This document shows, piece by piece, positions 42,005-58,533 of a stretch of 64,000 nucleotides of DNA. Positions within the stretch are counted from its first letter, which is position 1; every line of letters starts with the position of its first letter. Under the pieces are notes generated by a model. It was given only the letters and a program-made list of their open reading frames with translations, did not search any database and had not been told where the DNA came from. Source of the DNA: Catellatospora sp. KI3 (GTDB taxonomy: Bacteria > Actinomycetota > Actinomycetes > Mycobacteriales > Micromonosporaceae); the NCBI RefSeq assembly GCF_029948125.1, contig NZ_JASAMB010000002.1, positions 262,479 to 326,478 on the forward strand. The letters run 5' to 3'. A program made the position numbers and the translations under genes.

Positions 42005-42111
42005 GGTGCACGACGGGGATGTGTCGATCGGAGATCCTTGTCGCGTGCCCCGAACGGGGGAATCGCCAGCGGTCAGGTGCCTTCGTCCTTGGCGCGTCTT
42101 ATCCTGCGGTG

Positions 42112-42345: not shown

Positions 42346-42531
42346 CGCCACCCGTCAACCGCAAAGGCCCCGCCGTACCCCCGGCGATCATTCACGCTGC
42401 CCATGCGCCCACACCGCCGCCGTCGAGCCGCGCCGCCCGCCGCGCCGCCACTGCCACTGCCACTGCCGCCCGCTAGGTGATCACGGTGCCAGGGTGGGGA
42501 CACGCCGTCGGGCACGTCCATAGGTTCATGA

Positions 42532-43476
42532 TCAACGGGACATGGACTGGCGGAGGGCGGTGAGGGGGAGGGGGTCGTGGCGGAGGGAGAACTGGCCGGT
42601 GGGTTGGCGGTCGTCGGGGTCGGACTCGAAGTACAGGGTGGCGCGGATCTGGGGGTTGGCGGTGAAGACTGCCGCTGCCTCGGTGAGCCAGGTGGCGCGT
42701 TGGGTGGGGGACCAGGCGCGGGCTACGCCGTACTCGCCGATCATGATGGGTCTCGGGTGGGCGGCGGCCCAGCGGAGGAAGGGTTCGAGGAGGTCGGCCA
42801 TGGGGGTCAGGGCGGTGCCGGCGTAGGCGTCGACGCAGGTCCAGTCGACCTGGTCGTCGCCGGGGTAGTAGGCGGGGGCGCGGCCGGAGGCGAAGCCCTC
42901 GACGGTCGGGCACCAGACCCAGGCGGCGTTGGTGACGCCCTCGGCGGCGAACAGCTCCCGGGTGCGGCGCCAGGCGGCGACGAACTCGTGCGGCGAGCCG
43001 ACCTCGACGACCAGGTTGGGGCGGTCCATCTCCCAGCGCAGCCGCAGCAGCACCGGGGCGTCGAGGTCGCGGACCTGGCGGGCCCGCTCGCGGATCGCCG
43101 CGTCGTGCTGCCCGGTCAGCACCTCGGCGCTGTCGGCGCCGGTCCAGCTCAGCATCAGGGTGGCCCCGGCGTCGCGGAACCGCCGGTCCGAGACGGTCCC
43201 GATCTCCTCGTGCATGCGCCGGTACGTGTTGACGATGTCCAGCCGTCGGCCGAGCTGCTGCTCGAAGTCCTGCACGGCCGCGAAGCGGCCCGCCTGGGTG
43301 AGGCTGTCGGGGCGTACCCAGGCGCCCACCAGCGCGCCGCCGCGCGGGACCGGCACGGGGCCGGTGGCGAGGCCGGTGTCCGTCGCGATGCGCGGCGGGA
43401 CCGGGGTGGTCGTGCCGCAGGTGGCGAGGGTCAGCGCGGCCGCGATCGCGGCGGCGGCGCGCAGCAGGCGGAGCAT
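42532..43476 (-). CDS. GH26-like glycoside hydrolase (clan GH-A) lipoprotein
   Basis: Lipobox LATCG. Region IMIGEYGV with a putative nucleophile Glu, plus conserved segments shared with the C-terminal domain of 51437-54031. Start overlaps the upstream stop (TGATG). Confidence 0.6.
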   Translation of the reverse strand: MLRLLRAAAAIAAALTLATCGTTTPVPPRIATDTGLATGPVPVPRGGALVGAWVRPDSLTQAGRFAAVQDFEQQLGRRLDIVNTYRRMHEEIGTVSDRRFRDAGATLMLSWTGADSAEVLTGQHDAAIRERARQVRDLDAPVLLRLRWEMDRPNLVVEVGSPHEFVAAWRRTRELFAAEGVTNAAWVWCPTVEGFASGRAPAYYPGDDQVDWTCVDAYAGTALTPMADLLEPFLRWAAAHPRPIMIGEYGVARAWSPTQRATWLTEAAAVFTANPQIRATLYFESDPDDRQPTGQFSLRHDPLPLTALRQSMSR

Positions 43477-44228
43477 CAGTCGTGCGCCCGGGTGCGACGG
43501 GCGACGTACAGCACGTTCACCGCCCAGCGGCCGCCCCAGCCGGTGCGGGCGCACACGTCGTCGAGGACGCGGGCCAGGCCGCGCAGCCACGGGCGGCCGT
43601 ACCAGCCCTGGGTGAACAGGGCGAAGCCGCGCCGCTCGACGACGGTGAAGCCGTGCCGGTCCAGCAGTTCGGCGACCTCGGTGTGGTCGAGTTCGGCGAA
43701 CCAGGGCGAGCCGGCGTGGCGGTGGTGGCGCAGGTGCCGCAGCGAGTGCCGGTTGCCGTGGTTCTCCACCACGAGCAGGCCCGCGTCGTAGTTGGGCAGC
43801 ACCTTGGCCGAGAACGCGATGGCCCGCTCGCGCACCTCGGGCTCGACGTTGAGCAGCAGCCGGAAGATGGTGACCAGCGCGGGGGCCTCGGTGGGCTGCG
43901 GGTCGGGCACCTCGCCGGCGGACTCGACCAGGTGCAGCTCCGCGTACGAGCCGACCTCCTCGGCCTTGGCCAGCATCGCCGCCGAGGTGTCGTACCCGTG
44001 GGCGCCGCGGACCAGGCCGTGCAGGATGCGGATGGCGCGGCCGGTGCCGCAGGCGAAGTCGTGCTGCACCGGGCGCCGGTAGGGGAACGCGCGTTTGGCG
44101 AGTCTGCGCAGGTAGGCGCGTTGGCGTCGATTGATCGCCGAGGCGTAGCTGTCCGGGGCGTATACGACGTGCTCGTACTTCTCGACCGTCGCCTCGTCCT
44201 GGAAGATCTCGGTGTAGTCGGCGCGCAT
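43476..44228 (-). CDS. Class I SAM-dependent methyltransferase
   Basis: Motif I DFACGTGR, in Rossmann-fold methyltransferase arrangement. Confidence 0.7.
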   Translation of the reverse strand: MRADYTEIFQDEATVEKYEHVVYAPDSYASAINRRQRAYLRRLAKRAFPYRRPVQHDFACGTGRAIRILHGLVRGAHGYDTSAAMLAKAEEVGSYAELHLVESAGEVPDPQPTEAPALVTIFRLLLNVEPEVRERAIAFSAKVLPNYDAGLLVVENHGNRHSLRHLRHHRHAGSPWFAELDHTEVAELLDRHGFTVVERRGFALFTQGWYGRPWLRGLARVLDDVCARTGWGGRWAVNVLYVARRTRAHD

Positions 44229-44247
44229 GCGGTGCGGGTCCTATCTT

Positions 44248-45831
44248 CTAGCGGGTTGGCTGGCCCCGGCGCTTGCCGGGGGTGGTCGTGGGCCGGGCGG
44301 CCTTGAGCAGGGCGGCGAGCCCCAGCCGGTCCCGGAAGGTGCGCAGGCCGCCGACGTACACACCGGTGGCCAGGGCCAGCGTCGCGCCGGTGCCCAGCGC
44401 GGTGGCGGGCAGCGCCAGCCGGGCCAGCCAGGGCAGCAGGCCGAAGCTGGCCAGGGCCAGCCCCATCGCGGTGCGGGTGGCGCCACCGAACGGGTGCAGG
44501 CCCAGGGCGCCCGCGAGCTGCGCCAGCGGCACCAGGTTGTTGACCGCCACCGCGGCGGCCAGGCCGTAGGCGGCGCCGAGCACGCCGAGCCGGGGGATGG
44601 TGTACAGGTCGATGGCGACCATGACGGCCAGCGCCAGCAGTACGTTGGCGAGGTTCCAGGTGGTCCGCCCGGCCATCGACAGCACCATGTCGACCATGCC
44701 GCAGCCGGTGCCGATCAGCATCGCCACCGCGAGCACCCGCACCGCCGGAGCGGCCGAGACGTACGAGCCGCCGAAGACGCTCAGGTAGACGTCGGCGTAG
44801 TCCCACACCAGCAGGTGCAGCGGCCAGCAGATGAGCACCAGCCACGCCGTCGCGGTCTGGTAGAGCCGCTTGGCCCCGGCCCGGTCGCCGACGGACAGGG
44901 TCTCGGCCAGCCTCGGCTGCACCGCCTGCGCGATCGAGCCGTTGGCCAGCTGCCCGAGCACGATGAACCGCCCGGCCACCGCGTACGCCGCGGCGGGTGC
45001 CAGCCCGGCCAGCCCGGCGACCATCAGCACGTCCACCCGCTGCAGCGCGGTCTGCGCCGAGTTGGCCAGCGCGCGGGGCGCCGTGTAGCGCCAGAACGCC
45101 GAGGTTACGCTGCGCCCCTCGATCCGGGCGGCCAGCCGCTCGCGCCGGTCCAGCAGCGGTTCGCGCTGCCAGCGCCGCCACACCAGGTACGCCGCGAGCA
45201 GCACCACCGGCGCGTACGGCAGCACCCAGGCCAGCGCCCAGGTGGAGGTGGACAGCACCGCCCCGCCGGACACCGCGAGCACGGCCAGCGCGCCGACGCC
45301 GCACAGCTGCATCGCCGGGCGCAGGATCTTGTCGAGCAGCACCGTCGGCCGCATCTCGCGGTAGCCGCGGGTGGCCGCCAGCAGCGCGTCGGTCAGCGCC
45401 GCCAGCGGCATGAACACGGCCAGCGCCGAGAGCGGGGCGGCGTACTCGGGGACGAAGTGCGCGGCGGTCAGCCATACCCCCGCCGCCAGGATCGTGCCCA
45501 GCACGGCGACCGGCACCAGCCCGGCGCGCAGGCACGCGCCGATCAGCTCGGGCCGCCCCTGGGCCCGCAGCCGGGCCGGCCAGTAGACCAGCGCGGTCGA
45601 GGTGCCGAGCCGGGCCACCCCGCCGACCAGCACGAACGCCGACGTGGCGGCGAAGAACGAGCCGGCCGAGTCGGGGCCGAGGCCCCGCGCGACCAGCCAG
45701 GTCACGCCGACCCCGGCGACCCCGGCCAGCGCCGCCCCGGCCAGGTTGGCCAGGCCGCCCCGGGCGACGCCGGAGACCCCGGCGGGCTCCGGCGCCGTGG
45801 TGGGCGCGGGAGCCAGCAGCTGGCCGGTCAC
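44248..45831 (-). CDS. Polysaccharide biosynthesis protein / Wzx-type flippase (MOP superfamily)
   Basis: About 528 aa with at least 12 TM helices. GTG start overlapping the upstream sulfotransferase stop (GTGA). Confidence 0.7.
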   Translation of the reverse strand: MTGQLLAPAPTTAPEPAGVSGVARGGLANLAGAALAGVAGVGVTWLVARGLGPDSAGSFFAATSAFVLVGGVARLGTSTALVYWPARLRAQGRPELIGACLRAGLVPVAVLGTILAAGVWLTAAHFVPEYAAPLSALAVFMPLAALTDALLAATRGYREMRPTVLLDKILRPAMQLCGVGALAVLAVSGGAVLSTSTWALAWVLPYAPVVLLAAYLVWRRWQREPLLDRRERLAARIEGRSVTSAFWRYTAPRALANSAQTALQRVDVLMVAGLAGLAPAAAYAVAGRFIVLGQLANGSIAQAVQPRLAETLSVGDRAGAKRLYQTATAWLVLICWPLHLLVWDYADVYLSVFGGSYVSAAPAVRVLAVAMLIGTGCGMVDMVLSMAGRTTWNLANVLLALAVMVAIDLYTIPRLGVLGAAYGLAAAVAVNNLVPLAQLAGALGLHPFGGATRTAMGLALASFGLLPWLARLALPATALGTGATLALATGVYVGGLRTFRDRLGLAALLKAARPTTTPGKRRGQPTR

Positions 45832-46700
45832 TCGCGCCAGCTCGGGGTGTGGCCCAGCCACTGCGCCAGCTCGGCGTCGTGCGGGGCGTAGTGGGCGCGC
45901 AGTTCGGTACGCAGCCGGGCGGGCATCGGCGCCGTGCGCGGCCGGGCGTTGTGCTGCCCGAAGTCGGGGTAGCCCAGCAGCGGCAGCCCGAGGAAGTCGA
46001 GCACCTGGTCGTACGCGGCGGCCGGGTCGGTGAAGAACCGCTCGCTCTCCAGCACCAGGATCCGCTCGCGCGGCACCTCCCGCACGAGCCGCCGCAGGTA
46101 GACGGCGTACTCGCCGCGGGCGCGGTAGCCGTGGTGCTGGTGCGAGAACGAGTACGCGTGCTGGTCGGCGAGCATCCGCTCGCGCTGCCCGCGCAGCCGC
46201 GCGGGCTCCAGGTCCAGCGCGGCGGCGAAGTCGGCCGTGGTCTCGAAGCCGCGGGCCAGCTCGTGCGCGTGCTGGGAGTAGGCGCGCTCGACCGGGTCGC
46301 GGACCAGCACGATCAGCTTCACACCGGGCAGGTCGCGGGCGATGCGCCCGGCCGCGTGCGGGTGGTACAGGTAGTACGGGCTGGACTCGAAGGTCTGCAC
46401 CGGCACGCCCAGCTCGCGCTCCACCCGGGTGGCGGTGCGCCGCAGCGGGAAGTGCCCCTGGTACCAGGCCAGCCCCCGGTGGTAGCTGGTGTCGAAGTAG
46501 TGCACGCCCTTGTGCAGCACCGCCTTGAGCACGGCCGGGTGGGCGGCCATGGCGCGGTACAGCGAGGTGGTGCCGCAGCGCTGGCCGCCGCAGATCAGGA
46601 ACGAGGGCAGCATCCGCGCGCCCGAGGTCAGCCACCCGACCGACCGGGAGCCGAGGTGGACGACCTTCTTCACCGACTCCGGCACGTGCGTCGACTTCAC
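45828..46700 (-). CDS. Sulfotransferase family protein (second copy)
   Basis: P-loop-like PSB motif ICGGQRCGTTSL, and LVRDPVERAYSQ (3'-PB region). Confidence 0.7.
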   Translation of the reverse strand: MKSTHVPESVKKVVHLGSRSVGWLTSGARMLPSFLICGGQRCGTTSLYRAMAAHPAVLKAVLHKGVHYFDTSYHRGLAWYQGHFPLRRTATRVERELGVPVQTFESSPYYLYHPHAAGRIARDLPGVKLIVLVRDPVERAYSQHAHELARGFETTADFAAALDLEPARLRGQRERMLADQHAYSFSHQHHGYRARGEYAVYLRRLVREVPRERILVLESERFFTDPAAAYDQVLDFLGLPLLGYPDFGQHNARPRTAPMPARLRTELRAHYAPHDAELAQWLGHTPSWRE

Positions 46701-46731
46701 TGCTGCCTCCTCGGGCGGTCCAGGCGACGGG

Positions 46732-47988
46732 TCACAGGTGGGCGACCTTGCGGATGAGTACGGGCAGCAGCCACGTCCCCAGCACCCCCAGCCGGGCGCC
46801 CGCCTCGGCCTGCCGGTCGCTGAGGTACCGGGTGGCCAGGTCGGCCAGGTACAGCAGGGCCACCACCTCGGCGCTGCCGGGCACCACCTCGAACGGCTCC
46901 AGCAGGGCGGGCGCGCGGCGTACCGTGCCCTCGACCGCGGTCTGCGGGTCGGTCCCGTCCTGGAGCTGCCGCTGCAGGTCGTAGTGGACGGCGTCGAAGC
47001 CCAGCGGCACCCCGGGGGTGAACCGCTCCCAGTCCCAGACCAGCAGCGAGTCGTTGAGGTTGGCCATGTTCCACGGCGCCCAGTCGCCGTGCCAGGCGCC
47101 GTAGCGCAGGCTCAGCTCGGAGCAGCGCTCGACCAGGAAGCGGGCCGCCTGCGACAGCTGGGCCACCTCCGGGGCGGCCCGGTCGGCGGCGGCGGTGTCG
47201 GCCTCCAGCTGGCACAGCCGGTTGCGCAGGTCCGCCCAGTACGGGCTGGTGGCCAGCCAGCCCTGGGTCAACCCGCACGCGGCGGCGACCTCGGCCATCG
47301 CCCGCTGCAGCCGGGCCGGGGTGAGCACGGCGCGCGGCTGCCACACCGGCAGCGCCGACTGCACCAGCACCTGGGTGCCGCGCCACTGCCCGGCGTGCAG
47401 GATGCTCGGCACGGTCACCTCGGACAGCTGCACGTGCGACAGCGCGGACAGCGCGGCGGTCTCGGCGCGCACCAGCCGCCGGGTGAGCGGGCCGACGCCG
47501 AGCTTGGCGAAGCCGATAGTCTGCCCGTCCGGGCTGATCAGCTGCAGCACCGGCTTGCGGTTGGCCCGCGCGGGTCCGATGTGGATGCTGACGCGTACGT
47601 CGGTGCCCAGCGCCTGGCGCAGGAACGCGTCGATGGTGTCGCCGCCCCCGGCCGGGCTGGTCAGCCGGACCCGGTCGCGCAGCACCGCGGGCCAGGCACC
47701 GGACTGCAGCGCCATGGCGACGGCGTCGCGCTTGAACTTGGCCAGGCGGCTCTGCGGCTCGGCGAAGCGGCGCACCGCGGCGGCCGCGACGCGGCGCGAG
47801 CCCAGCGGCACCAGCAGCTTGGGCCGGCGCGCGTCGGGGATCACGACGTACTCCGCGACGCGGGTGCCGGGGGCGCCGGTGCTGGAGCACTGCGGGTAGA
47901 GCAGCTGCAGCACCTCGCGCAGGAACTGCCCGCGCAGCTGCGCGTCGGACCGGGTGAGCTGGGCCGGGGCGGTGCTGATCGGGCTCAT
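46732..47988 (-). CDS. Protein-kinase-like fold phosphotransferase (APH/CotH-like)
   Basis: Catalytic-loop-like HGDWAPWN followed by DWE. Sits inside the glycan gene cluster. Start MSPISTAPAQ with RBS GAGGT. The track begins at 48060. Confidence 0.5.
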   Translation of the reverse strand: MSPISTAPAQLTRSDAQLRGQFLREVLQLLYPQCSSTGAPGTRVAEYVVIPDARRPKLLVPLGSRRVAAAAVRRFAEPQSRLAKFKRDAVAMALQSGAWPAVLRDRVRLTSPAGGGDTIDAFLRQALGTDVRVSIHIGPARANRKPVLQLISPDGQTIGFAKLGVGPLTRRLVRAETAALSALSHVQLSEVTVPSILHAGQWRGTQVLVQSALPVWQPRAVLTPARLQRAMAEVAAACGLTQGWLATSPYWADLRNRLCQLEADTAAADRAAPEVAQLSQAARFLVERCSELSLRYGAWHGDWAPWNMANLNDSLLVWDWERFTPGVPLGFDAVHYDLQRQLQDGTDPQTAVEGTVRRAPALLEPFEVVPGSAEVVALLYLADLATRYLSDRQAEAGARLGVLGTWLLPVLIRKVAHL

Positions 47989-48114
47989 GCGGCCGACCTC
48001 AGGTTCTGCTCGCCCACGCCGAATCCTCCCGATTTTGTCCGTTATGTCCTCCGGGCTCAACGGAGGAGCCCGGGGATCGGTGCGGGGAATCGGGGCGCGA
48101 AAAGGACGGCCGGG

Positions 48115-49494
48115 TCAGGCGGCCGAGCGGGTCTGCTCGTTGCGCCACAGCAGCACGTACCCGAGGAAGGTGAACGCCAGCGGCGTGACCAGGGAGTTGT
48201 ACCAGAGCGCGGCCACGAACGAGCCGGTGATCGCGGCCGTGGCCGCCAACCCGATCGGGGACCGGTCGCGCCGGAACCGCCACAGCGCGAACCCGAAGAA
48301 CCCGAAGTAGGTGACCGTGCCCGCCAGCCCGTGCGCGAACAGCAGCTGCCACAGCTGGCCGTTGCCGCCCACGGTGAAGTTGCCGCAGCGCTCGCACGCC
48401 GCTGACTCGCCGACGGTGATCGAGTTGCGGCCGCCCACGGTGTTGCGGGTCGAGCCGAAGCCGAGCACCGGCGACTCGGCGAACCCGGCCAGCGCCCGCT
48501 CGGTGAGGAACATGCGGACGCCGTTGGACTTGCCGTTGTCCATCCGCCGCTCGACCACGCCGCCCAGCGGGGTGGCGGCCAGCGCCACCACCAGCCCGGC
48601 GCCGACTACGCCCAGCGCCACGAGCGCGCGGACGCGTCCGGCCAGCGCCTGGCGGACCGCGACGAACACCGCCGCGACGCCCAGACCGATCCACAGGCCG
48701 CGGTTGAGCGAGTGGACCACCGGGATGACCGACAGCACCAGCGTGGCCACCGCCAGCACCCGGGTGCGCACCGAGGTCCGGTACGCGAACACGGCCACCA
48801 CGAACCACACCACCAGCAGGCAGAAGTTGTTGCCCCAGGTGTTGGTGTAGCCCCACGGCGCGGCCGGGCGGGGCAGCGGGTCGCCGACCAGGTCCATGAT
48901 CTGCGCCGCGTACGGGTGGACCAGCGACTTCACGAAGCTCTTGCCGCGTACGCCGTCGGGCAGCAGCAGCTCGAACGGCGAGGTGAACTCGAACGACCCC
49001 GCGAACGTGCCCAGCAGCCCGCCCGCGACGGTCACCGCGAACAGCCAGCCCAGCAGGTTCACCAGCCGCCGCTGGGTCAGCACGGCGGTGGACAGGTTCC
49101 CGGCGTAGACCAGCAGGACGGTCAGGGCGGCGTACTGGATCAGGCGGAACGCCACCGCGGTGATCCGGTCGCCGAACCCGGCGACGACGGTCCCCTCCGG
49201 ATCGACGTCCAGCACCGCCAGCCCGGCCACGACCGTCGCGCAGAACGACAGCCACAGCCAGAAGCCGGGCGGCAGCCGCACCGGTCGGCCCGAGGTGTGG
49301 CGGCGCCACAGCTGCACCGCCATCGGTACGGCGGCCATCGGGAAGATCAGCACGCCCAGGCCCAGCGCCCACCACAGCGGATACAGCGCCAGCAGCAGCG
49401 TGAGCGGCCAGCCGGGCCCCAGCAGCGACCGGAACCCGGTGCGCGCGGGCGGGGGACCGGCGGGCAGTGCGGTGACCGGGGCCAGGGCGGTCAC
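48115..49494 (-). CDS. O-antigen ligase / polymerase-like (Wzy_C family) integral membrane protein
   Basis: About 460 aa, 10-12 TM helices with a large periplasmic loop. GTG start overlaps the upstream wzc stop (GTGA). Confidence 0.6.
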   Translation of the reverse strand: MTALAPVTALPAGPPPARTGFRSLLGPGWPLTLLLALYPLWWALGLGVLIFPMAAVPMAVQLWRRHTSGRPVRLPPGFWLWLSFCATVVAGLAVLDVDPEGTVVAGFGDRITAVAFRLIQYAALTVLLVYAGNLSTAVLTQRRLVNLLGWLFAVTVAGGLLGTFAGSFEFTSPFELLLPDGVRGKSFVKSLVHPYAAQIMDLVGDPLPRPAAPWGYTNTWGNNFCLLVVWFVVAVFAYRTSVRTRVLAVATLVLSVIPVVHSLNRGLWIGLGVAAVFVAVRQALAGRVRALVALGVVGAGLVVALAATPLGGVVERRMDNGKSNGVRMFLTERALAGFAESPVLGFGSTRNTVGGRNSITVGESAACERCGNFTVGGNGQLWQLLFAHGLAGTVTYFGFFGFALWRFRRDRSPIGLAATAAITGSFVAALWYNSLVTPLAFTFLGYVLLWRNEQTRSAA

Positions 49495-51131
49495 CGGGGG
49501 TGCGCCTCGTCCAGCTCGGCCAGCTCGGAGGCGTCGACCGGGGCGAGCATGATGGTCTGGTCCTCGCCGCGCGGCTTGTGGCCGTTGGTGTGCGGGTCCG
49601 GCTCGGGCGCGGCGGTCTCGACCAGCGCGGGCTCGGGCGTGGCGGCGGGCTTGCGGCGGGCGCGGTGCGCCAGCTTCGGCATGACCACGCCGCCCAGCAG
49701 CACCGTGCCGACCCGGCGCAGCTGCTCGGCCGCGTCGGACAGCTGCGGGCGGCGGGTGCGCCGCAGCTCGACCGCGACGATCGCCGCGTCGGCGAGGCTG
49801 GCCAGGCTCTGCGCGTCGGCGCTGGCCGCGGTCGACGGGGCCTCGATGACCAGGTAGTCGGCGTGGGCCCGCAGCGTCGCCACGATGTCGCGCAGGGCGT
49901 GCGACTGCAGCATGCCCGCGGCGGTGGCGGTGCCGCCGGTGGTGATGACGTGCAGCGAGGGGGTACGCGCCGCGCGCTGCGTCGCCTCGGCCAGGTTGAC
50001 CCGGCCCGCGAGCAGGTCGGACAGGCCCGGCGTCGGGGCGACCCCGAGCAGCTGCGCCAGCGGCGCGCTCTCGGCCAGCGTGTCGGGCACCTGCGCTCCG
50101 ATCAGTACCACCTCGGCCCCCGTCCGCGACAGCGCCGCGGCCAGGTTCGCCGCCACCAGCGTCGCGGCCGGGCCGCGGCTGGCCCCGGTCACCACCACGA
50201 CCTGCTCGCCCGGCTTGAGCGCGGCGACCACCTCGTTGCGCAGCCGGTTGAAGGCCCGCCCGCCGGGGCTGAACGGGGTGAACACCTCGGTGCAGCTCTT
50301 GCCCTTGCCCGACACCGTGCCCAGCACGTCGATCCCGGCCCGGACCAGGTCGCGGCCGCCGTGCACGCGCCGGTCCAGCCGCTGGCGCAGCGCGGCCAGG
50401 CCCAGCCCGGCGAGCAGCCCCAGCAGGGCGCCCGCGGCGTAGTTGACGGCCGGGTTCGGCTTGACCGGGCGGCTGGGCACCCGCGCCTCCTGGATGATCA
50501 CGCCCGCGTTGACCGTCTCGGTGGCCAGCGCGTTGACCCTGTTGTTGAGCTGGTTGATCTGGTTCACCGTGGTGTCGCGCTGGCTGTCCAGCGAGGCGTA
50601 CGCGCTGCTGTTGGAGTGCAGCCCGCTCAGCTTGCCGTTGATGTCGGTGAGGTCGTCGCTCAGCTCCTTGAGCTTGGCCCGCAGCGCGTCGGCCTGCCGG
50701 GTCAGCTCGGCCTTGGCGTTGCCCTCCCGGTTGGCCAGGTAGGACTGCGCGAACGCGTGGGCACCCGCCTGCGCCTCCAGCGGGTCGCCCGCGGTGTACT
50801 CGACCTGCAGCACCGACGTGTTCGGCGGCACCTCGACCGAGACCGACGCGCCGAGCACGTCGACGTCCTGGCGGTTCAGCAGCTTGGCTGCCCCGGCCAC
50901 GACCGGCGTCGAGCGCAGCAGCTGCGCCTCGGTGTCCAGGTTGATCTCGTCGCGGGTACGGCCGCCGGAGACGTTGGCGTCCAGCCCGGCGGGCCGGACC
51001 AGCACCGAGGCGGCCGACACGTACTCGCGCGGCAGCGACTGGTTGTAGGCGGCGCCCGCGGCCACCCCCAGCGCGGTGAGCACCACCGCGATCCACCAGT
51101 GGCGGCGCAGCAGGCCGAGGTAGTCGCTCAT
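49491..51131 (-). CDS. Polysaccharide co-polymerase / tyrosine autokinase (Wzc-like)
   Basis: N-terminal Wzz-type TM plus coiled-coil periplasmic domain. C-terminal CpsD/CapB-type P-loop ATPase (VVVVTGASRGPAATLVAANLAAAL; ITTGG). Confidence 0.7.
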   Translation of the reverse strand: MSDYLGLLRRHWWIAVVLTALGVAAGAAYNQSLPREYVSAASVLVRPAGLDANVSGGRTRDEINLDTEAQLLRSTPVVAGAAKLLNRQDVDVLGASVSVEVPPNTSVLQVEYTAGDPLEAQAGAHAFAQSYLANREGNAKAELTRQADALRAKLKELSDDLTDINGKLSGLHSNSSAYASLDSQRDTTVNQINQLNNRVNALATETVNAGVIIQEARVPSRPVKPNPAVNYAAGALLGLLAGLGLAALRQRLDRRVHGGRDLVRAGIDVLGTVSGKGKSCTEVFTPFSPGGRAFNRLRNEVVAALKPGEQVVVVTGASRGPAATLVAANLAAALSRTGAEVVLIGAQVPDTLAESAPLAQLLGVAPTPGLSDLLAGRVNLAEATQRAARTPSLHVITTGGTATAAGMLQSHALRDIVATLRAHADYLVIEAPSTAASADAQSLASLADAAIVAVELRRTRRPQLSDAAEQLRRVGTVLLGGVVMPKLAHRARRKPAATPEPALVETAAPEPDPHTNGHKPRGEDQTIMLAPVDASELAELDEAHPR

Positions 51132-51173
51132 GTCGTACGACGAGGGGGGTGACCCGGCGTAAGTCGCTTCCAC

Positions 51174-51436: not shown

Positions 51437-54031
51437 ATGAGCAAGACCCGCGTCGGCATCGCGATCACCGTCAGCATGTCGGTTCTGGCTTCGGCGGTCC
51501 TGCTCGGACTGCTGGGCGGGGCGCTGACCCCGCCGCCTGCCCGCGTCTCGGTCACCGAGGACGCGTACACCCTGAGCACCGCGCCCACCGCCGGTGCCGG
51601 CCGCCAGGTCTACCTCACCGCGGGCGGCTACAAGGGCGGAGCGGCGGTCAGCTACCTGAAGTTCCACGTGCAGCTGCCCGAGGGGCGGCGCCCCGACCGG
51701 ATCTGGCTGTGGCTCGGCCGCCACAGCGGCACGCTGCCGCGCGTGGTCGAGCTGACCCAGGTGCCCGACACCCGGTGGCGCCAGAGCACGCTCACCGCCG
51801 CCACCGCGCCGCGCCTGGGCAACGTCGTCTCCTCGGTCACGCCCGGCCGCTACGACCGCGCCGTCGCCTTCGACATCACCCGGGTCGTCAACGGCTCCGG
51901 CTGGTACGCCTTCGCGGTGACCGCGCCGACCGGCAACCAGCTGGCCTACTTCGTCGCGGCGGAGGCAGGTGCCACCAGCACCGGCCCGCCCACGATCACC
52001 TTCGAGTGGAACGCCCTGCCCAGCACGGGCAGCACGCTGCCCGGGGTACCGTCGCCCACGGCGACCGCTTCCGCCACGGCCGCCGCGAGCGCGCAGCCCG
52101 GCGGCACCGCCACGACGACACCGGCCGCCGATCCGATCGGGACGCCCACCCTGACGCCGGACCCGGCCGACCCGTCGCCGGCCGACCCGTCGCCGAGCGA
52201 CGATCAGACCAGCAGCAGCGAACCGGTCCCGGGCAGCCCGGAGCCGAGCGAGTCGCCCGAGGGGCCCGCGCAGGAGCCGGAGCCCAGCCCGGCCGTCTCG
52301 ACCGAGCCGAGCGCCGGCACCTGGCCCGCGCCGTCCGATTCGGCCGAGCCCAGCCCGGAGCCGAGCCCCCTTCCCGACCCGTCCACCTCGGTCGGCCCGG
52401 TCGACCTGCCCGAGCCGTCGACCGCGCCCAGCGTCACCCCGTGGCCGGACTCGTCCTACTCGCCCAGCGAGCAGCCCTGGCCGTCCGCCTCGCCCAGCGC
52501 CGACCCGTGGCCGTCCGCCTCGCCCAGCGTGGACCCGTGGCCGTCCGCGTCGCCGGTGGTCGACCCGTGGCCGACGGACGAGCCGACGACCGGCGAGGAG
52601 CCCTCCTCGGGCCCCAGCCCGACCGACCTGCCCTCGCCGGCCGACCCCGGCACGGACCCGTCCGCCGAGCCCCTGCCCAGCGTCGACCCCGTGCCGAGTG
52701 TCGACCCCGTGCCGAGCATCGAACCTCAGCCCAGCACCGAGCCCGCGCCGAGCACCGAGCCTGAGCCGAGCATCGAACCTGAGCCGAGCATCGAGCCTGC
52801 GCCTAGCGTCGAACCTCAGCCGAGCGTCGAACCTCAGCCGAGCGCCGAGCCCAGTCCGGATCCCACCCTCGACCCGCAGCCCAGCGCCGAGCCGAGCACC
52901 GACCCCGGCACTGAGCCGGGTCCCGAGCCCAGCGTCGAGCCCGAGCCGAGCACCGCGCCCGAGCCCAGCGCGGAACCGAGCGCCGAGCCGCAGCCGAGTG
53001 CTGAGCCGAGCGCCGGACCCAGCACCGGGCCGAGCACCGGGCCCAGCCCGTCGACCGGGCCGGAACTGCCGGCGGACTGCGTGATCGGGGCGAACCTGGT
53101 GCCCACCTGCGGCGCGCTGTGGGGGGTCGCCGCCGGCGCCCACACCCGGCAGAACCGCATCGAGGCCCTGTACGAGTTCGAGCGCCGCACCGACCGCCGC
53201 CAGGTCATCTACCACGCGTACCACCGGGGCACCGAGCTGTTCCCGACCGCGGAGGAGCTGTCCATCACCAAGGACCCGCAGCAGCGGCGGATCCTGTTCC
53301 TCAACTGGAAGCCGCAGCAGGCGAACTGGGCCCAGATCGCCGCGGGCGACCGGGGCACCGAGGCCTACCTCGACCGGCTTGCCGCCCACATCAAGAGCTC
53401 GCTGACCGAGCCGTTCTTCTTCACGATGAACCACGAGCCCGAGAACGACGTGGTCAACCGGCCCGGGTCGGGCATGACCGCCCTGGACTACGCCGCCGCG
53501 TTCCGGCAGGTGGTGACCGGTCTGCGCCAGCGCGGCGTGTCCAACCTGGTCTCGGTGATGTGCTACATGGCCTTCGTGCCGTGGAACGTGAAGGGCTGGT
53601 TCGAGCAGCTGTACCCCGGCGACGACGTGGTCGACTGGGTGGCCTGGGACACCTACGCCTACAGCGAGCCCGGCTACGGCTACGGCGACTTCGCCGAGAT
53701 GATGAACCGGGTCTCCGGCAGCCGCAAGGACTGGCCCGGCTTCTACAACTGGGCCGCGACGTCCTTCCCGGACAAGCCGCTGATGCTGGGCGAGTGGGGG
53801 GTGTGGCACTCCGCCCGCAACCCGCTGCACCAGTCGGAGTTCTTCGACTCGGCCCGGCTGCAGCTGGAGTCGTTCCCGCGGCTGAAGGCGCTGGTCTACT
53901 TCGAGTCGCCCAGCGCCGAGGGGCGCAGCTCGATGATCGACGACACCCCGGCCGGGCTGGCCTCGTTCCAGCGGTTCAGCCAGCACCCGGCCTTCGACAT
54001 CGACACCCTCCCGCTGGGCCGCCGGCGCTAG
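51437..54031 (+). CDS. Secreted multidomain protein: signal peptide + N-terminal beta-sandwich (putative carbohydrate-binding) domain + ~300-aa Pro/Glu/Ser/Thr-rich repeat linker + C-terminal GH26-like hydrolase domain
   Basis: 864 aa. Signal and TM MSKTRVGIAITVSMSVLASAVLLGLL. Linker repeats EPxPSxEP, encoded by DNA tandem repeats at about 52200-53060. C-terminal HEPEND, LMLGEWGVWH and VYFESP segments parallel the 42532-43476 protein. Confidence 0.65.
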   Translation: MSKTRVGIAITVSMSVLASAVLLGLLGGALTPPPARVSVTEDAYTLSTAPTAGAGRQVYLTAGGYKGGAAVSYLKFHVQLPEGRRPDRIWLWLGRHSGTLPRVVELTQVPDTRWRQSTLTAATAPRLGNVVSSVTPGRYDRAVAFDITRVVNGSGWYAFAVTAPTGNQLAYFVAAEAGATSTGPPTITFEWNALPSTGSTLPGVPSPTATASATAAASAQPGGTATTTPAADPIGTPTLTPDPADPSPADPSPSDDQTSSSEPVPGSPEPSESPEGPAQEPEPSPAVSTEPSAGTWPAPSDSAEPSPEPSPLPDPSTSVGPVDLPEPSTAPSVTPWPDSSYSPSEQPWPSASPSADPWPSASPSVDPWPSASPVVDPWPTDEPTTGEEPSSGPSPTDLPSPADPGTDPSAEPLPSVDPVPSVDPVPSIEPQPSTEPAPSTEPEPSIEPEPSIEPAPSVEPQPSVEPQPSAEPSPDPTLDPQPSAEPSTDPGTEPGPEPSVEPEPSTAPEPSAEPSAEPQPSAEPSAGPSTGPSTGPSPSTGPELPADCVIGANLVPTCGALWGVAAGAHTRQNRIEALYEFERRTDRRQVIYHAYHRGTELFPTAEELSITKDPQQRRILFLNWKPQQANWAQIAAGDRGTEAYLDRLAAHIKSSLTEPFFFTMNHEPENDVVNRPGSGMTALDYAAAFRQVVTGLRQRGVSNLVSVMCYMAFVPWNVKGWFEQLYPGDDVVDWVAWDTYAYSEPGYGYGDFAEMMNRVSGSRKDWPGFYNWAATSFPDKPLMLGEWGVWHSARNPLHQSEFFDSARLQLESFPRLKALVYFESPSAEGRSSMIDDTPAGLASFQRFSQHPAFDIDTLPLGRRR

Positions 54032-55641
54032 CGGGGATTGATCCAGCCTTCGTCGGCGAGGTACGCGAGTACCTCGCCGACGGCGTCTTCGATGGTGCCG
54101 GCCGAGGTGTCGAGGACCAGTTCGGCGTCGGTCGGCACCTCGTACGGGTCGTCGATGCCGGTCATGCCGGTGAGCTGCCCGGCGCGGGCGCGGGCGTAGA
54201 GGCCCTTGCGGTCGCGCTGCTCGCACACCTCCAGCGGGGTGGCGACGTAGACCAGCACGAAGTCGGCCCCGGCGGCCACCGCCATCCTCCGCACCGTGGC
54301 GCGGGCGCTGGCGTACGGCGCGATCGGGCAGGCCACGGCCAGGCCGCCGTGCCGGGCCACCTCGGCGGCGACCCAGCCGATGCGGCGGATGTTCAGGTCG
54401 CGGTCGGCCTTGCTGAATCCCAGCCCGGCCGACAGTTCGCGGCGCACCACGTCGCCGTCGAGCACGGTGAGGCTGCGCTCGCCCGTCTCCAGCAGCGCGT
54501 CGGCGACCCCGCGCGCCACCGTGGACTTGCCGGAGCCGCTGAAGCCGGTGAAGAACAGGACCAGGCCCCGCTGGCGGCGCGGCGGCCGGGAGCGGGTCAG
54601 CTCGCGGGCGACCGCGGGCGGGGTGTGCCACTCCGGCAGCGGCAGGCCGTCGTCGAGCAGGCCGGCGATCTCCTCGTCGGTGAGCGCGATCCGCTCGAAC
54701 CGCTCGGGCACCTCGTCGCGGTCGCGCCACTGGCCGTCGCGGCTGTCGTACACCAGCTCGCGCGGGATGAGCACGCGCGGGCCGGCGCCGGTCATCGCAC
54801 CGGGCGTGCCGAGCAGGTGGGTCACCCCGTACGCCGCGGCGACCTTGGCGCGGACCAGGGCGTCGGTGATCTCGTTGCCCCGGTCGACCAGGGGCACGGC
54901 CACGATGATCGGGTCGTGCATCCGGTCCCGGGCGGCCAGCACGCAGCGCACCAGCGCCTCGGCGGTCAGCCCGTCCGGGCCGGGCGCGCCGACCGGGACC
55001 AGCACCAGCAGCTGCGCGTTGAGCTGCCGGGCGGCGTGGTTGAGCTGGGCCAGCTGCGGGCGGTGCAGCGGGCGGTCGGCGAAGAAGCCGAGCACGCGCG
55101 GGGCGGTGATCAGCCCGTGCACCCGCTCGGTGGGCACGCGCAGGCGCGCGAACGGGGCACGGCCGCCGTCACCGGTGCGGGTGACCGGCCCGGCCACCCC
55201 GACCCAGCCCTCGCGGGCGGGCCACACCTCCGTCACGTCCAGGCGCGCCACCGGGGCGCCCTCGGGGTCGGTCAGCAGCAGCGGGGGCCGGTCGGCGACG
55301 TCGATGCCGTCGAGCATGCCCGCGGGCACCTCCAGCTTGACCGGCAGCGGCCAGGGCCGCCCGTCGCCCAGGCGCGCCGTAGCCGCCACCGAACGCAGGT
55401 CGTCGCGGCCGAGGAACCCGCCCAGCGGCGCGTACGCCCCGCTGAGCAGCAGCTCCAGATCGGACAGCTCCGTCGGGTTCGGGGTCCACGACGGTGCGCC
55501 CCGCAACGCCTCGTCGCTCACCACTCGCTCGCTCCGCTCGCTCACGATCGCTCCTGCCTCCCCGACTTCCGGCCGGTCCACTCCTTCGCGCCACTCGCGT
55601 CGTCGCGAGACTAGCGCCCCTCCGTGACCGACAGGTGACAA
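54028..55641 (-). CDS. cysC: Adenylyl-sulfate (APS) kinase with N-terminal ATP-sulfurylase-like (probably catalytically degenerate) domain
   Basis: C-terminal APS kinase P-loop FFTGFSGSGKSTVA. N-terminal segment LSDLELLLSGAYAPLGGFL matches the ATP-sulfurylase N-domain. The canonical QTRN/HRAH motif is replaced (FADRPLHRPQL). True start may be internal. Confidence 0.7.
   Translation of the reverse strand: MSPVGHGGALVSRRREWREGVDRPEVGEAGAIVSERSERVVSDEALRGAPSWTPNPTELSDLELLLSGAYAPLGGFLGRDDLRSVAATARLGDGRPWPLPVKLEVPAGMLDGIDVADRPPLLLTDPEGAPVARLDVTEVWPAREGWVGVAGPVTRTGDGGRAPFARLRVPTERVHGLITAPRVLGFFADRPLHRPQLAQLNHAARQLNAQLLVLVPVGAPGPDGLTAEALVRCVLAARDRMHDPIIVAVPLVDRGNEITDALVRAKVAAAYGVTHLLGTPGAMTGAGPRVLIPRELVYDSRDGQWRDRDEVPERFERIALTDEEIAGLLDDGLPLPEWHTPPAVARELTRSRPPRRQRGLVLFFTGFSGSGKSTVARGVADALLETGERSLTVLDGDVVRRELSAGLGFSKADRDLNIRRIGWVAAEVARHGGLAVACPIAPYASARATVRRMAVAAGADFVLVYVATPLEVCEQRDRKGLYARARAGQLTGMTGIDDPYEVPTDAELVLDTSAGTIEDAVGEVLAYLADEGWINPR

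Positions 55642-55722: not shown

Positions 55723-58533
<2,811 letters not shown>

What the first reader, a model, noticed from the sequence alone, without database searches (positions are those of the whole stretch)
54028..55641. APS kinase fused to an ATP-sulfurylase-like domain whose catalytic motifs are replaced
The C-terminal half has an intact APS-kinase P-loop (GFSGSGKST). The N-terminal half aligns to the ATP sulfurylase fold (LSDLELLLSGAYAPLGGFL), but the canonical QTRNP-HRAH and GRD motifs are substituted (FADRPLHRPQL; LLVLVPVGAPGPDG). This resembles the two-domain APS kinase of Thiobacillus denitrificans, in which the sulfurylase-like domain is inactive and structural. If so, APS must be supplied by a separate CysDN/Sat encoded elsewhere. 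This gene sits at the edge of the sulfotransferase cluster and is the likely PAPS source for glycan sulfation.
Basis: partly seen in the sequence, partly recalled or inferred. Interest (0 to 1): 0.55.

Follow-up and report, generated by a model that had tools for sequence, protein, structure and literature searches.

The report
APS kinase with dead sulfurylase domain
This gene encodes an enzyme that makes the sulfate donor PAPS; its kinase half is intact, its N-terminal half is a catalytically dead copy of ATP sulfurylase, and it most likely feeds the neighbouring gene cluster that builds a sulfated polysaccharide.

Summary
The ORF at 54028-55641 (-) is real. Its likely start is the GTG at 55545, giving 505 aa. 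The C-terminal half is a complete APS kinase. The N-terminal half has the ATP sulfurylase fold, but QxRN, the second His of HxxH, the GxxKxxD loop, VGRDHAG and the SGTxxR Arg are all replaced, and about 25 residues after the GRD loop are missing. The best solved match is the Thiobacillus denitrificans two-domain APS kinase (3CR8), and Entamoeba EhAPSK (23VK) has the same design. The protein is conserved across Micromonosporaceae. In 42 of 84 loci it lies directly next to a Wzx/Wzy cluster with sulfotransferases. That cluster matches by gene content and order wps-1 of Actinoplanes missouriensis, where deleting the adjacent gene AMIS_7390 "unexpectedly" wrecked sporangium formation. PAPS supply would explain that phenotype. 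About 30 Micromonospora and Plantactinospora loci keep the gene but lack the cluster. No cysDN or sat lies in the window or in any fetched locus, so the APS source is untested.

The parts
54028..55545 (-). Most likely CDS of the two-domain APS kinase (505 aa, GTG start). The maximal ORF extends to the TTG at 55641.
   Evidence: ORF and GC3. Start inferred from AGGAG plus a 5-nt spacer and from homologue starts.
55551..55555 (-). Shine-Dalgarno-like AGGAG, 5 nt upstream of the GTG start
   Evidence: Read from the sequence. Function is inferred.
55213..55542 (-). PUA-like N-terminal domain (residues 34-143 of the long ORF), equivalent to domain I of ATP sulfurylases
   Evidence: Pfam PUA_2 4e-18. 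Aligns to domain I of 3cr8, 1m8p, 2gks and 1g8f.
54772..55212 (-). Degenerate ATP-sulfurylase catalytic-like (Rossmann-like) domain, residues 144-290
   Evidence: Pfam PF01747 partial match, profile 20-118/212. TIGR00339 scores 57.8 bits against a cutoff of 322.95. The AF2 model (pLDDT 86.9) matches ATP sulfurylase structures.
55054..55083 (-). FADRPLHRPQ, in the place of QTRNPMHRAH (QxRN plus HxxH): Q->F, T->A, R->D, N->R, second H->Q
   Evidence: RPLHRPQ is present in 117 of the 120 closest homologues.
54970..54990 (-). GAPGPDG, in the place of the GxxKxxD mobile loop (Lys->Gly, Asp->Gly).
   Evidence: The loop is defined in PMC3779200.
54790..54810 (-). GTPGAMT, in the place of VGRDHAG (GRD loop), followed by a deletion of about 25 residues relative to active enzymes and to 3cr8
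   Evidence: The spacing from His275 to Pro336 is 61 residues, against 82-87 in canonical representatives, 86 in 1m8p and 87 in 3cr8. The model has no helix between strands 243-245 and 257-259.
54577..54771 (-). Domain III/linker (residues 291-355). It keeps the PFR arginine (IPR) and LPEWHTPP, but SGTxxR is replaced by TDEEIA.
   Evidence: This is the most conserved segment in the family.
54028..54576 (-). APS kinase domain (residues 356-537) with an intact P-loop, LDGD, DRxxNxRR and KGLY motifs
   Evidence: PF01583 1-152/152 at 1e-54. TIGR00455 scores 183 bits, above the 138.7 cutoff. Foldseek to 5cb8 gives TMt 0.94-0.95, rmsd 1.4 A, 46% identity.
54520..54546 (-). Kinase P-loop GFSGSGKST
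38749..51173 (-). Adjacent wps-1-like Wzx/Wzy polysaccharide cluster. It holds GT2 (38749-39828), sulfotransferase (39765-40805), WecG GT (40852-41661, + strand), GH26-like (42532-43491), methyltransferase (43476-44228), MatE/Wzx-like (44248-45867), sulfotransferase (45828-46700), a WpsI-like protein with no Pfam match (46732-48060), Wzy_C (48115-49494) and Wzz/GNVR (49491-51173). These are the presumed PAPS consumers.
   Evidence: Pfam scans. The same gene order follows the kinase gene in other genera. The gene set matches wpsA-K of A. missouriensis.

Best explanation
The gene encodes a two-domain APS kinase of the 'sulfurylase-like domain + kinase domain' (SLD-KD) type. The C-terminal domain phosphorylates APS to PAPS. 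The N-terminal two-thirds keep the PUA-like plus Rossmann-like fold of ATP sulfurylase but have lost the residues that bind sulfate, the alpha-phosphate and pyrophosphate, so this part does not make APS. Instead it most likely serves as an oligomerisation and stabilising module that may also stimulate the kinase. APS is therefore made by a separate enzyme encoded elsewhere, most plausibly CysDN. The PAPS is used chiefly by the two sulfotransferases of the neighbouring wps-1-like Wzx/Wzy cluster to sulfate an extracellular polysaccharide. Shown here: the domain architecture, the motif loss, the intact kinase motifs, the fold, and the conserved synteny. Inferred: the lack of sulfurylase activity, the role of the dead domain, the APS source, and the sulfated product.
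For: Kinase half: it matches the full Pfam and TIGR models above their cutoffs, the P-loop, LDGD, DRxxNxRR and KGLY motifs are present, and the model superposes on APS kinases at 1.4 A. Dead sulfurylase half: QxRN becomes FADR, HRAH becomes HRPQ, GxxKxxD becomes GAPGPDG, VGRDHAG becomes GTPGAMT and SGTELR becomes TDEEIA, in three concordant alignments, and a segment of about 25 residues after the GRD loop is missing. TIGR00339 scores 57.8 against 322.95 and the bifunctional model NF004040 scores 400 against 669. In the literature, alanine substitution of the HxxH His or Arg or of VGRDHAG residues abolishes or strongly reduces sulfurylase activity (PMC6607087). The best structural and sequence relative is the inactive-SLD enzyme 3cr8, which keeps more canonical residues (QARQ, HRAQ) than this protein. 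EhAPSK (23VK) is a second precedent: its SLD has no activity but raises kinase kcat about 100-fold and prevents aggregation. The SLD is under purifying selection, with mean column conservation of 0.83 against 0.85 for the kinase across 121 sequences. Link to sulfation: a WpsK/J/I/H (sulfotransferase)/G block directly follows the gene in 38-42 of 84 loci from at least 12 named genera. In A. missouriensis, deleting AMIS_7390, the 'sulfate adenylyltransferase/APS kinase family' gene next to wpsK, gives a severe sporangium defect and the same drop to 10^2-10^6 released spores as the wpsA, C, F-K deletions, while growth looks normal. An actinomycete precedent exists for a cluster-linked CysC that relies on APS made elsewhere: Sam35 (PMC13291958).
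Against: No enzyme assay exists for any member of this clade. No cysD, cysN or sat was found, but only the window and +-10 kb of 84 related loci could be searched, so the APS source is unproven. About 30 Micromonospora and Plantactinospora loci keep the gene although the wps block is absent between it and DeoR-GalT-IsoDH, so it must have another use or another consumer there. AMIS_7390 is not co-induced with wps-1 at day 3. Orthology of AMIS_7390 rests on position and the paper's description, because its sequence was not compared here. The replaced RNP/HxxH stretch is almost invariant in the family (0.95), which a purely structural role does not obviously require.
Confidence: 0.77

Rival explanations
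1. It is a genuine bifunctional PAPS synthase, like Aquifex aeolicus Sat/CysC. The N-terminal domain would still adenylylate sulfate using non-canonical residues, so no separate CysDN or Sat is needed.
For: The whole-chain architecture and fold equal those of 2gks (TM 0.73/0.71). Some sources name homologues 'bifunctional sulfate adenylyltransferase/adenylylsulfate kinase' or 'sulfate adenylyltransferase'. His193, Arg194 and the PFR arginine are retained, and the FADRPLHRPQ stretch is nearly invariant. No cysDN or sat was seen nearby.
Against: All sulfate- and phosphate-binding motif residues are replaced and a segment is deleted. NF004040 and TIGR00339 score far below their cutoffs. Single substitutions in these motifs kill activity in characterised enzymes. 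The less degenerate T. denitrificans and Entamoeba proteins are described as lacking sulfurylase activity.
Confidence: 0.04
2. It is simply the housekeeping CysC of Micromonosporaceae, supplying PAPS for general needs or for assimilatory reduction through a PAPS reductase. Its position beside the sulfotransferase cluster would then be incidental.
For: The gene sits in a conserved housekeeping neighbourhood (ppc, mfd, icd). It is retained in about 30 loci that lack the wps block. AMIS_7390 is under different transcriptional control from wps-1.
Against: [quoted passage not shown] Characterised actinobacteria assimilate sulfate through APS reductase, which needs no PAPS (my own knowledge of M. 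tuberculosis CysH, not tested here). In wps-positive genomes the gene abuts wpsK on the same strand, about 100-150 bp apart, in most loci.
Confidence: 0.12
3. The degenerate domain is decaying and has no function; only the kinase domain matters.
For: Its catalytic motifs are gone. Among related representatives the region after the GRD loop varies from 12 to 96 residues, which looks like erosion.
Against: Within Micromonosporaceae the SLD is as conserved as the kinase domain (0.83 against 0.85; 61-62% against 77% identity across genera). No frameshifts or truncations were seen in 120 homologues. The domain folds confidently (pLDDT 86.9). Removing the SLD from EhAPSK causes aggregation and a drop in kcat of about 100-fold.
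Confidence: 0.05

Closest known systems
Thiobacillus denitrificans two-domain APS kinase (Tbd_0210, UniProt Q3SM86, PDB 3CR8; Gay, Segel & Fisher 2009)
   Same: Same order of domains: PUA-like, sulfurylase-like, linker, active APS kinase. It is the best PDB match by sequence and a full-length structural match with TM 0.74/0.76. In both proteins HRAH has become HRxQ and the GRD loop is lost.
   Different: T. denitrificans keeps Q and R of QxRN (QARQ) and the canonical 87-residue spacing after the GRD strand. The window protein has FADR and is about 26 residues shorter. The host is a chemolithotrophic betaproteobacterium, and no link to a polysaccharide cluster is known to me. The hexameric state could not be tested here.
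Entamoeba histolytica APS kinase EhAPSK (PDB 23VK/23VL; PMC13213808, 2026)
   Same: An inactive sulfurylase-like domain fused to an active kinase. A substrate-binding loop is lost and the segment leading into the kinase domain is shorter than in active enzymes. PAPS is used for sulfation (sulfolipids), not for cysteine synthesis.
   Different: It is eukaryotic (mitosomal) and dimeric. Only the PUA-like part of its SLD aligns by sequence (28 bits). Whether its regulatory contact residues E90 and Y133 have equivalents here was not examined.
AMIS_7390 of Actinoplanes missouriensis, adjacent to the wps-1 cluster (PMC13390465, 2026)
   Same: Same genomic position (next to wpsK/Wzz) and same family description. 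The wps-1 gene set (GT2, 2 sulfotransferases, WecG, GH26, MTase, Wzx, kinase-like, Wzy, Wzz) matches window 38749-51173.
   Different: The authors treated it as a sulfate adenylyltransferase/APS kinase of amino-acid biosynthesis and called the phenotype unexpected. The dead sulfurylase domain and the PAPS-supply logic are not discussed there. Catellatospora has an extra convergent CBM96/GH26-like gene between the kinase gene and wpsK. Sequence identity to AMIS_7390 was not measured.
Bifunctional Sat/CysC of Aquifex aeolicus (PDB 2GKS; NCBIfam NF004040)
   Same: Same domain order and overall fold.
   Different: 2GKS has intact QTRNPMHR and GRDHAG motifs. The window protein scores 400 bits against the NF004040 cutoff of 669.
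Penicillium chrysogenum ATP sulfurylase (PDB 1I2D/1M8P)
   Same: Same three-part architecture, TM 0.79/0.71.
   Different: It is the mirror image: the sulfurylase is active and the C-terminal kinase-like domain is the degenerate one (P-loop GYMNSGKD), serving as an allosteric PAPS site.
Sam35, the cluster-encoded CysC of the saccharomicin pathway in Saccharothrix espanaensis (PMC13291958)
   Same: An actinomycete APS kinase linked to a sulfotransferase pathway, with no CysD or CysN in the cluster. It boosts PAPS supply.
   Different: The paper reports Sam35 only as a CysC homologue (43.2% identity to E. coli CysC). It serves a secondary-metabolite cluster rather than a Wzx/Wzy polysaccharide cluster.

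Membership tests
APS kinase (CysC, EC 2.7.1.25; PF01583 / TIGR00455) | Full-length match to the family models above the curated cutoffs | tested here: met
   PF01583 at 184.8 bits over profile 1-152/152. TIGR00455 at 183 bits against a 138.7 cutoff.
APS kinase (CysC, EC 2.7.1.25; PF01583 / TIGR00455) | P-loop GxxGxGKS/T together with the LDGD, DRxxNxRR and KGLY motifs | tested here: met
   GFSGSGKST, LDGDVVRR, DRDLNIRRIG and DRKGLYARARAG all align to active 3cr8 and 2gks kinase domains and are invariant in the family.
APS kinase (CysC, EC 2.7.1.25; PF01583 / TIGR00455) | Kinase fold | tested here: met
   Foldseek TMt 0.94-0.95 and rmsd 1.4 A to Synechocystis APSK 5cb8, using a model with pLDDT 86.9.
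APS kinase (CysC, EC 2.7.1.25; PF01583 / TIGR00455) | APS + ATP -> PAPS activity | not testable with these tools
   Requires an enzyme assay.
ATP sulfurylase (Sat, EC 2.7.7.4; PF01747 / TIGR00339) | QxRN (RNP loop) binding sulfate and the alpha-phosphate | tested here: not met
   FADR replaces QTRN. The motif is defined in PMC3779200 and PMC6607087.
ATP sulfurylase (Sat, EC 2.7.7.4; PF01747 / TIGR00339) | HxxH motif | tested here: not met
   HRPQ: the first His and the Arg are kept, the second His is Gln.
ATP sulfurylase (Sat, EC 2.7.7.4; PF01747 / TIGR00339) | VGRDHAG (GRD loop) | tested here: not met
   GTPGAMT occupies this position and is followed by a deletion of about 25 residues.
ATP sulfurylase (Sat, EC 2.7.7.4; PF01747 / TIGR00339) | GxxKxxD mobile loop and the SGTxxR arginine | tested here: not met
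   GAPGPDG and TDEEIA occupy these positions.
ATP sulfurylase (Sat, EC 2.7.7.4; PF01747 / TIGR00339) | Family model scores above curated cutoffs over the whole catalytic domain | tested here: not met
   TIGR00339 at 57.8 against 322.95 and NF003166 at 53.2 against 387, both matching only the PUA part. PF01747 exceeds its cutoff (46.8 against 24.3) but covers only profile positions 20-118 of 212.
ATP sulfurylase (Sat, EC 2.7.7.4; PF01747 / TIGR00339) | PUA-like plus Rossmann-like fold | tested here: met
   Foldseek TMt 0.61-0.66 to stand-alone ATP sulfurylases (1r6x, 8a8g, 1jhd, 1v47, 4dnx, 7fh3).
Two-domain SLD-KD APS kinases (T. denitrificans 3CR8 / E. histolytica 23VK type) | N-terminal sulfurylase-like domain lacking catalytic motifs, fused to an intact C-terminal APS kinase | tested here: met
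   The same pattern holds in 49 of the 69 nearest full-length 50%-identity representatives.
Two-domain SLD-KD APS kinases (T. denitrificans 3CR8 / E. histolytica 23VK type) | Absence of ATP sulfurylase activity in the purified protein | not testable with these tools
   Requires an assay. It is inferred from the motif loss.
Two-domain SLD-KD APS kinases (T. denitrificans 3CR8 / E. histolytica 23VK type) | A separate, functional ATP sulfurylase encoded elsewhere in the genome | tested here: inconclusive
   tblastn with E. coli CysD and CysN and with canonical Sat representatives found nothing in the 64-kb window or in 84 loci of about 21 kb. Whole genomes could not be searched.
Bifunctional Sat/CysC (NCBIfam NF004040 equivalog) | Score at or above the curated cutoff | tested here: not met
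   400.1 bits against a cutoff of 669.
wps-1-type Wzx/Wzy sulfated-polysaccharide locus (A. missouriensis AMIS_7280-7380 plus AMIS_7390) | Kinase gene adjacent to wpsK (Wzz), followed by Wzy, a WpsI-like gene, sulfotransferase, Wzx, MTase, GH26, WecG, a second sulfotransferase and GT2 | tested here: met
   The window genes carry the same set of domains. The order is conserved in 38-42 of 84 loci. The gene list comes from PMC13390465. One difference is that Catellatospora has a convergent CBM96/GH26-like gene inserted between the kinase gene and wpsK.
wps-1-type Wzx/Wzy sulfated-polysaccharide locus (A. missouriensis AMIS_7280-7380 plus AMIS_7390) | A sulfated polysaccharide product | not testable with these tools
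   Not yet shown even in A. missouriensis; the paper says it 'awaits experimental verification'.

The most novel reading that the evidence does not exclude
The dead sulfurylase domain in this actinobacterial clade is a conserved regulatory or docking module rather than mere scaffolding. The remodelled pocket (the invariant RPLHRPQLA stretch, the GDGG loop, ARDRM) would sense APS, PAPS or sulfate, or would dock the kinase onto CysDN or the Wps sulfotransferases. PAPS supply for developmental polysaccharide sulfation would then be gated or channelled at the protein level. This would account for the SLD being as conserved as the kinase domain, for the gene surviving in genomes without the wps block, and for its transcription being uncoupled from wps-1.
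Probability: 0.15. Interest if true: 0.55.

Novelty: new member of a known kind. Interest (0 to 1): 0.35.

Why it matters
There are three practical consequences. First, annotation: JGI names this family 'sulfate adenylyltransferase' and some NCBI records name it 'bifunctional Sat/CysC', but the sequence supports only the kinase, so pathway reconstructions that count it as a sulfate-activating enzyme are wrong. Second, it gives a simple and testable explanation for a published puzzle. Deleting AMIS_7390 next to wps-1 in Actinoplanes missouriensis 'unexpectedly' abolished normal sporangia. If the gene is the PAPS supplier for WpsB and WpsH, its loss should mimic loss of sulfation. That would strengthen the still unverified claim that actinomycetes make sulfated exopolysaccharides. 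Third, the nearest 50%-identity representatives show many lineages with the same 'dead sulfurylase + live kinase' design and very different degrees of erosion. That set is useful for asking what the retained domain does. None of this is a new kind of system.

Tried and rejected
1. The first AlphaFold run on a 15-sequence alignment gave pLDDT 61.8 and pTM 0.39. Its Foldseek result was used only as a rough check. It was superseded by the 121-sequence run, with pLDDT 86.9.

2. I searched for the APS source. No CysD, CysN or second Sat turned up in Pfam scans of about 47 ORFs across the window. tblastn with E. coli CysD and CysN (fetched) and with canonical Sat representatives against the window plus 84 loci also found nothing.

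3. A literature search for cysDN in Micromonosporaceae found nothing useful. Searches for 'sulfurylase-like' with 'APS kinase' returned no papers.

4. Gay et al. 2009 (PMC2756168) is not held. Statements about the T. denitrificans enzyme therefore come from papers citing it and from the 3cr8 sequence alignment.

5. I tested whether the former active-site elements are more conserved than the rest of the SLD, as a hint of a retained ligand site. They are not (entropy 0.77 against 0.67, Mann-Whitney p = 0.78), although the RNP/HxxH-equivalent and PFR-equivalent stretches are nearly invariant.

6. I considered whether the gene is cluster-specific. This was rejected, because Micromonospora and Plantactinospora keep it without the wps block.

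7. I looked for A. missouriensis among the named cluster members. It was not among the 15 members listed.

8. The promoter and terminator scan of 53800-55900 found nothing informative.

Full report
**What is in the sequence**

The window is high-GC DNA (0.65-0.76). It carries an ORF at 54028..55641 on the minus strand with the codon-position GC pattern of a real gene (0.79/0.53/0.94). The first in-frame start is a TTG at 55641. Two observations point instead to the GTG at 55545-55543, which gives 505 aa. First, the close Catellatospora homologue P0002 (87% identical) is annotated from the equivalent MSERSER, while homologues from other genera begin a few residues further downstream. Second, AGGAG lies 5 nt upstream of that GTG. 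Residue numbers below follow the long 537-aa ORF. The closest database protein is 95% identical and comes from Catellatospora sp. TT07R-123, so the window is from a Catellatospora-like member of the Micromonosporaceae.

**Domain anatomy**

- Pfam finds a PUA-like domain at 34-143 and an ATP-sulfurylase match at 181-277 that covers only profile positions 20-118 of 212. It finds a complete APS kinase at 358-511, covering profile 1-152/152 with E 1e-54.
- NCBIfam agrees. The apsK domain model passes its cutoff (183 against 138.7). The sulfate adenylyltransferase models (57.8 against 322.95; 53.2 against 387) and the bifunctional Sat/CysC equivalog (400 against 669) all fail theirs.
- The kinase motifs are all present and align to active kinase domains: GFSGSGKST, LDGDVVRR, DRDLNIRRIG, PIAPY and DRKGLYARARAG.

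**The sulfurylase motifs**

The literature defines the ATP sulfurylase site by QxRN, HxxH, VGRDHAG and PFR (PMC6607087), plus the GxxKxxD mobile loop and SGTxxR (PMC3779200). Three independent alignments give the same register. These are phmmer against PDB, a family profile against PDB, and MAFFT with canonical representatives such as P0220.

| Canonical | Window protein |
|---|---|
| GFQTRNPMHRAHV | GFFADRPLHRPQL |
| VVGKTKPGD | VPVGAPGPDG |
| PLAMRMAGPKEAL | PLVDRGNEITDAL |
| HFIVGRDHAGPG | HLLGTPGAMTGA |
| VPFR | LIPR |
| ISGTELRR | LTDEEIAG |

- Gln, Arg and Asn of QxRN are gone, as are the second His of HxxH, the loop Lys and Asp, the whole GRD loop and the SGTxxR Arg. Only His193, Arg194 and the PFR Arg remain.
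- The stretch between the conserved His before the GRD loop and the PEW motif is 61 residues. It is 82-87 residues in canonical representatives, 86 in P. chrysogenum and 87 in T. denitrificans.
- The confident structure model shows no helix in that interval.
The GRD assignment is out of register, because LLVLVPVGAPGPDG is the mobile-loop equivalent. The conclusion that the motif is lost still holds.
- Alanine substitutions in HxxH or VGRDHAG are reported to abolish or strongly reduce sulfurylase activity. I infer from this that the domain is catalytically dead.

**Fold**

A 15-sequence alignment gave a poor model (pLDDT 61.8). A 121-sequence alignment gave pLDDT 86.9 and pTM 0.78. Foldseek aligns the whole chain to these entries:

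- T. denitrificans APS kinase 3cr8, TM 0.74/0.76
- P. chrysogenum ATP sulfurylase 1i2d, TM 0.79/0.71
- Aquifex Sat/CysC 2gks, TM 0.73/0.71

The N-terminal part aligns to stand-alone sulfurylases with TMt 0.61-0.66. The kinase part aligns to APS kinases with TMt 0.94-0.95 at 1.4 A. The fold is therefore kept while the active site is not.

**Closest known systems**

By sequence the best solved relative is 3cr8, with E 1.8e-86 for the single sequence and 1.9e-115 for the profile. Its sulfurylase-like domain alone scores 97 bits, against 42+20 bits for the active fungal enzyme. [quoted passage not shown] It shares the HRxQ change but keeps QARQ and the full-length segment after the GRD strand, so the window protein is more eroded.

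A second characterised case is Entamoeba EhAPSK (23VK/23VL). Its sulfurylase-like domain has lost a substrate-binding loop. Deleting the domain causes aggregation and a drop in kcat of about 100-fold.

P. chrysogenum ATP sulfurylase is the mirror image, with an active sulfurylase and a degenerate kinase-like domain.

**How common this design is**

An exhaustive search with residues 34-300 against 1.84 billion cluster representatives gave 1685 hits at E<=1e-3, 328 at E<=1e-10 and 14 at E<=1e-30. Among the 69 listed representatives of 400 aa or more:

- 49 combine an intact kinase P-loop and LDGD with no QxRNxxHxxH and no GRDHxG.
- Only 5 carry the canonical QxRNxxHxxH.
- The replacement residues and the length of the post-GRD segment (12-96 residues) differ widely.

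'Dead sulfurylase + live kinase' is therefore a widespread and variably eroded design, not a peculiarity of this genome.

Within Micromonosporaceae, none of the 120 closest homologues (66-95% identity) has the canonical motifs, and 117 have RPLHRPQ. NCBI mostly names them 'adenylyl-sulfate kinase', a few are named 'bifunctional', and JGI names them 'sulfate adenylyltransferase'.

**Is the dead domain under selection?**

Yes. Across 121 sequences its mean column conservation is 0.83, against 0.85 for the kinase domain. Between genera, identity is 61-62% for the dead domain and 77% for the kinase. The former active-site elements as a set are not more conserved than the rest of the domain (p = 0.78), so there is no specific evidence for a retained ligand site. 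The RNP/HxxH-equivalent stretch is, however, nearly invariant.

**Genomic context**

The window is mostly housekeeping: oligopeptide ABC transporters, uvrD/pcrA-like helicase, sucCD, purN, folD, mdh, icd, ppc and mfd. Between the kinase gene and a DeoR-GalT pair lies a Wzx/Wzy polysaccharide cluster at 38749-51173. Its genes are:

- GT2
- sulfotransferase
- WecG-type glycosyltransferase
- GH26-like protein
- methyltransferase
- MatE/Wzx-like transporter
- a second sulfotransferase
- a 442-aa protein with no Pfam match
- Wzy
- Wzz

A secreted CBM96/GH26-like protein at 51437-54031 (+) is convergent with the kinase gene.

I fetched 84 related loci, 4 by exact protein look-up and 80 from a scan of species-representative genomes. 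I then searched them with the window's proteins.

- A Wzz homologue follows the kinase gene in 42 loci. Wzy, the WpsI-like gene and the sulfotransferase follow in 39, Wzx in 38, and the MTase and GH26 genes in 32.
- These genes are usually on the same strand and start about 100-150 bp after the kinase gene.
- The genera include Actinoplanes, Paractinoplanes, Catellatospora, Krasilnikovia, Mangrovihabitans, Jidongwangia, Pseudosporangium, Phytohabitans, Nucisporomicrobium, Asanoa, Pilimelia and one Micromonospora.
- About 30 loci, nearly all Micromonospora or Plantactinospora, keep the kinase gene but run straight into DeoR-GalT-IsoDH.

The cluster is therefore a presence/absence block, and the kinase gene belongs to the family backbone.

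**Published genetics**

The cluster matches wps-1 of Actinoplanes missouriensis (AMIS_7280-7380, WpsA-K) gene for gene (PMC13390465).

- That study predicts a sulfated exopolysaccharide and finds most wps genes necessary for normal sporangia.
- It reports that deleting the adjacent AMIS_7390 'unexpectedly' causes a severe sporangium defect, with 10^2-10^6 spores released. [quoted passage not shown]
- No macroscopic growth differences were seen on YBNM or HAT agar, and AMIS_7390 is not co-induced with wps-1.
- The authors link the enzyme to amino-acid biosynthesis and offer no explanation for the phenotype.

In every Actinoplanes locus with a wpsK homologue that I examined, the adjacent gene is the SLD-KD kinase. 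From this I infer that AMIS_7390 is the orthologue, although I did not compare the sequence directly. I further infer that its phenotype reflects loss of PAPS for WpsB and WpsH. A parallel exists in another actinomycete: Sam35, a CysC encoded in the saccharomicin cluster without CysDN, boosts PAPS for a sulfotransferase.

**The APS source**

Neither the Pfam scans of the window nor tblastn with E. coli CysD and CysN and canonical Sat sequences found any candidate in the window or the 84 loci. This is consistent with 'encoded elsewhere' but does not prove it.

**Verdict**

The protein is a new, more eroded actinobacterial member of the known SLD-KD class of APS kinases. It is already present in databases, often under a misleading name. 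The useful increment is the connection to the wps-1 sulfation cluster and to the unexplained AMIS_7390 phenotype. Interest is modest, at 0.35.

Noticed in passing
window 38749-51173 (mostly - strand): A complete wps-1-like Wzx/Wzy cluster with two sulfotransferases from different families, a methyltransferase and a GH26-like gene. It matches the cluster just described in Actinoplanes missouriensis as needed for sporangium formation. To my own knowledge Catellatospora does not form sporangia, so the polysaccharide probably has a role beyond the sporangium matrix.
   Followed up: partly
window 38749-54031, compared with L002, L077, L082 and L025: The whole wps block is a presence/absence polymorphism in the family. 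In about 30 Micromonospora and Plantactinospora loci the kinase gene is followed directly by the DeoR regulator, GalT and IsoDH that flank the far side of the cluster in the window (36866-38735 and 32835-34415).
   Followed up: yes
window 51437-54031 (+): An 864-aa secreted-looking protein with an N-terminal CBM96, a long Pro/Ser/Glu-rich linker encoded by imperfect tandem repeats (52163-53047; periods 12-54) and a weak GH26-like C-terminus. Its stop overlaps the kinase gene's stop by 4 nt, and the two genes converge. In Actinoplanes-type loci its homologue (46-52% identity) lies upstream of the kinase gene on the opposite strand instead.
   Followed up: partly
window 46732-48060 (-): A 442-aa protein with no Pfam match, conserved at 56-67% identity (93% in the close Catellatospora relative L001) in the same cluster position in 39 loci. 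It corresponds by position to WpsI, which is 'protein kinase-like' by InterPro and required for normal sporangia in A. missouriensis. Its function is unknown.
   Followed up: no
window 41758-42345 (+): A weakly coding-looking ORF with a DUF397 domain lies between the WecG and GH26-like genes. A. missouriensis and L003 have a DUF4262 gene (WpsD, dispensable) in the same part of the cluster.
   Followed up: no
representatives P0121-P0270: There is a graded series of decay in the sulfurylase motifs across lineages. Examples are P0184 GFQARSPLHRAHH plus GRDHGG, P0208 AFQTRSPIHKAQL, P0166 AFQTTRPIHRAEH and P0225 AFQAHQPLHRVQY. P0231 is the opposite case, with canonical Sat motifs but no kinase P-loop. 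This suggests repeated or progressive loss rather than a single event. No tree was built.
   Followed up: partly
homologue annotations: The same 90%-identity clusters carry three different names: 'adenylyl-sulfate kinase' (NCBI), 'bifunctional sulfate adenylyltransferase/adenylylsulfate kinase' (some NCBI records) and 'sulfate adenylyltransferase' (JGI). Only the first is supported by the motifs.
   Followed up: yes
L002-L004, L077 (upstream of the kinase gene): In Micromonospora, Actinoplanes and Krasilnikovia a four-gene ABC-transporter block (two ABC_tran genes, an ABC2 membrane protein and an unknown) lies between ppc and the kinase gene. In M. chalcea a TarS-like GT2 is there as well. Catellatospora lacks this block, and ppc abuts the kinase gene.
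   Followed up: no
window 34697-35176 (-): A short ORF (about 159 aa) matches only the C-terminal anticodon-binding domain of cysteinyl-tRNA ligase (PF23493, 3e-8). It may be a fragment or part of a mis-delimited gene in the poorly resolved stretch 34415-36016.
   Followed up: no
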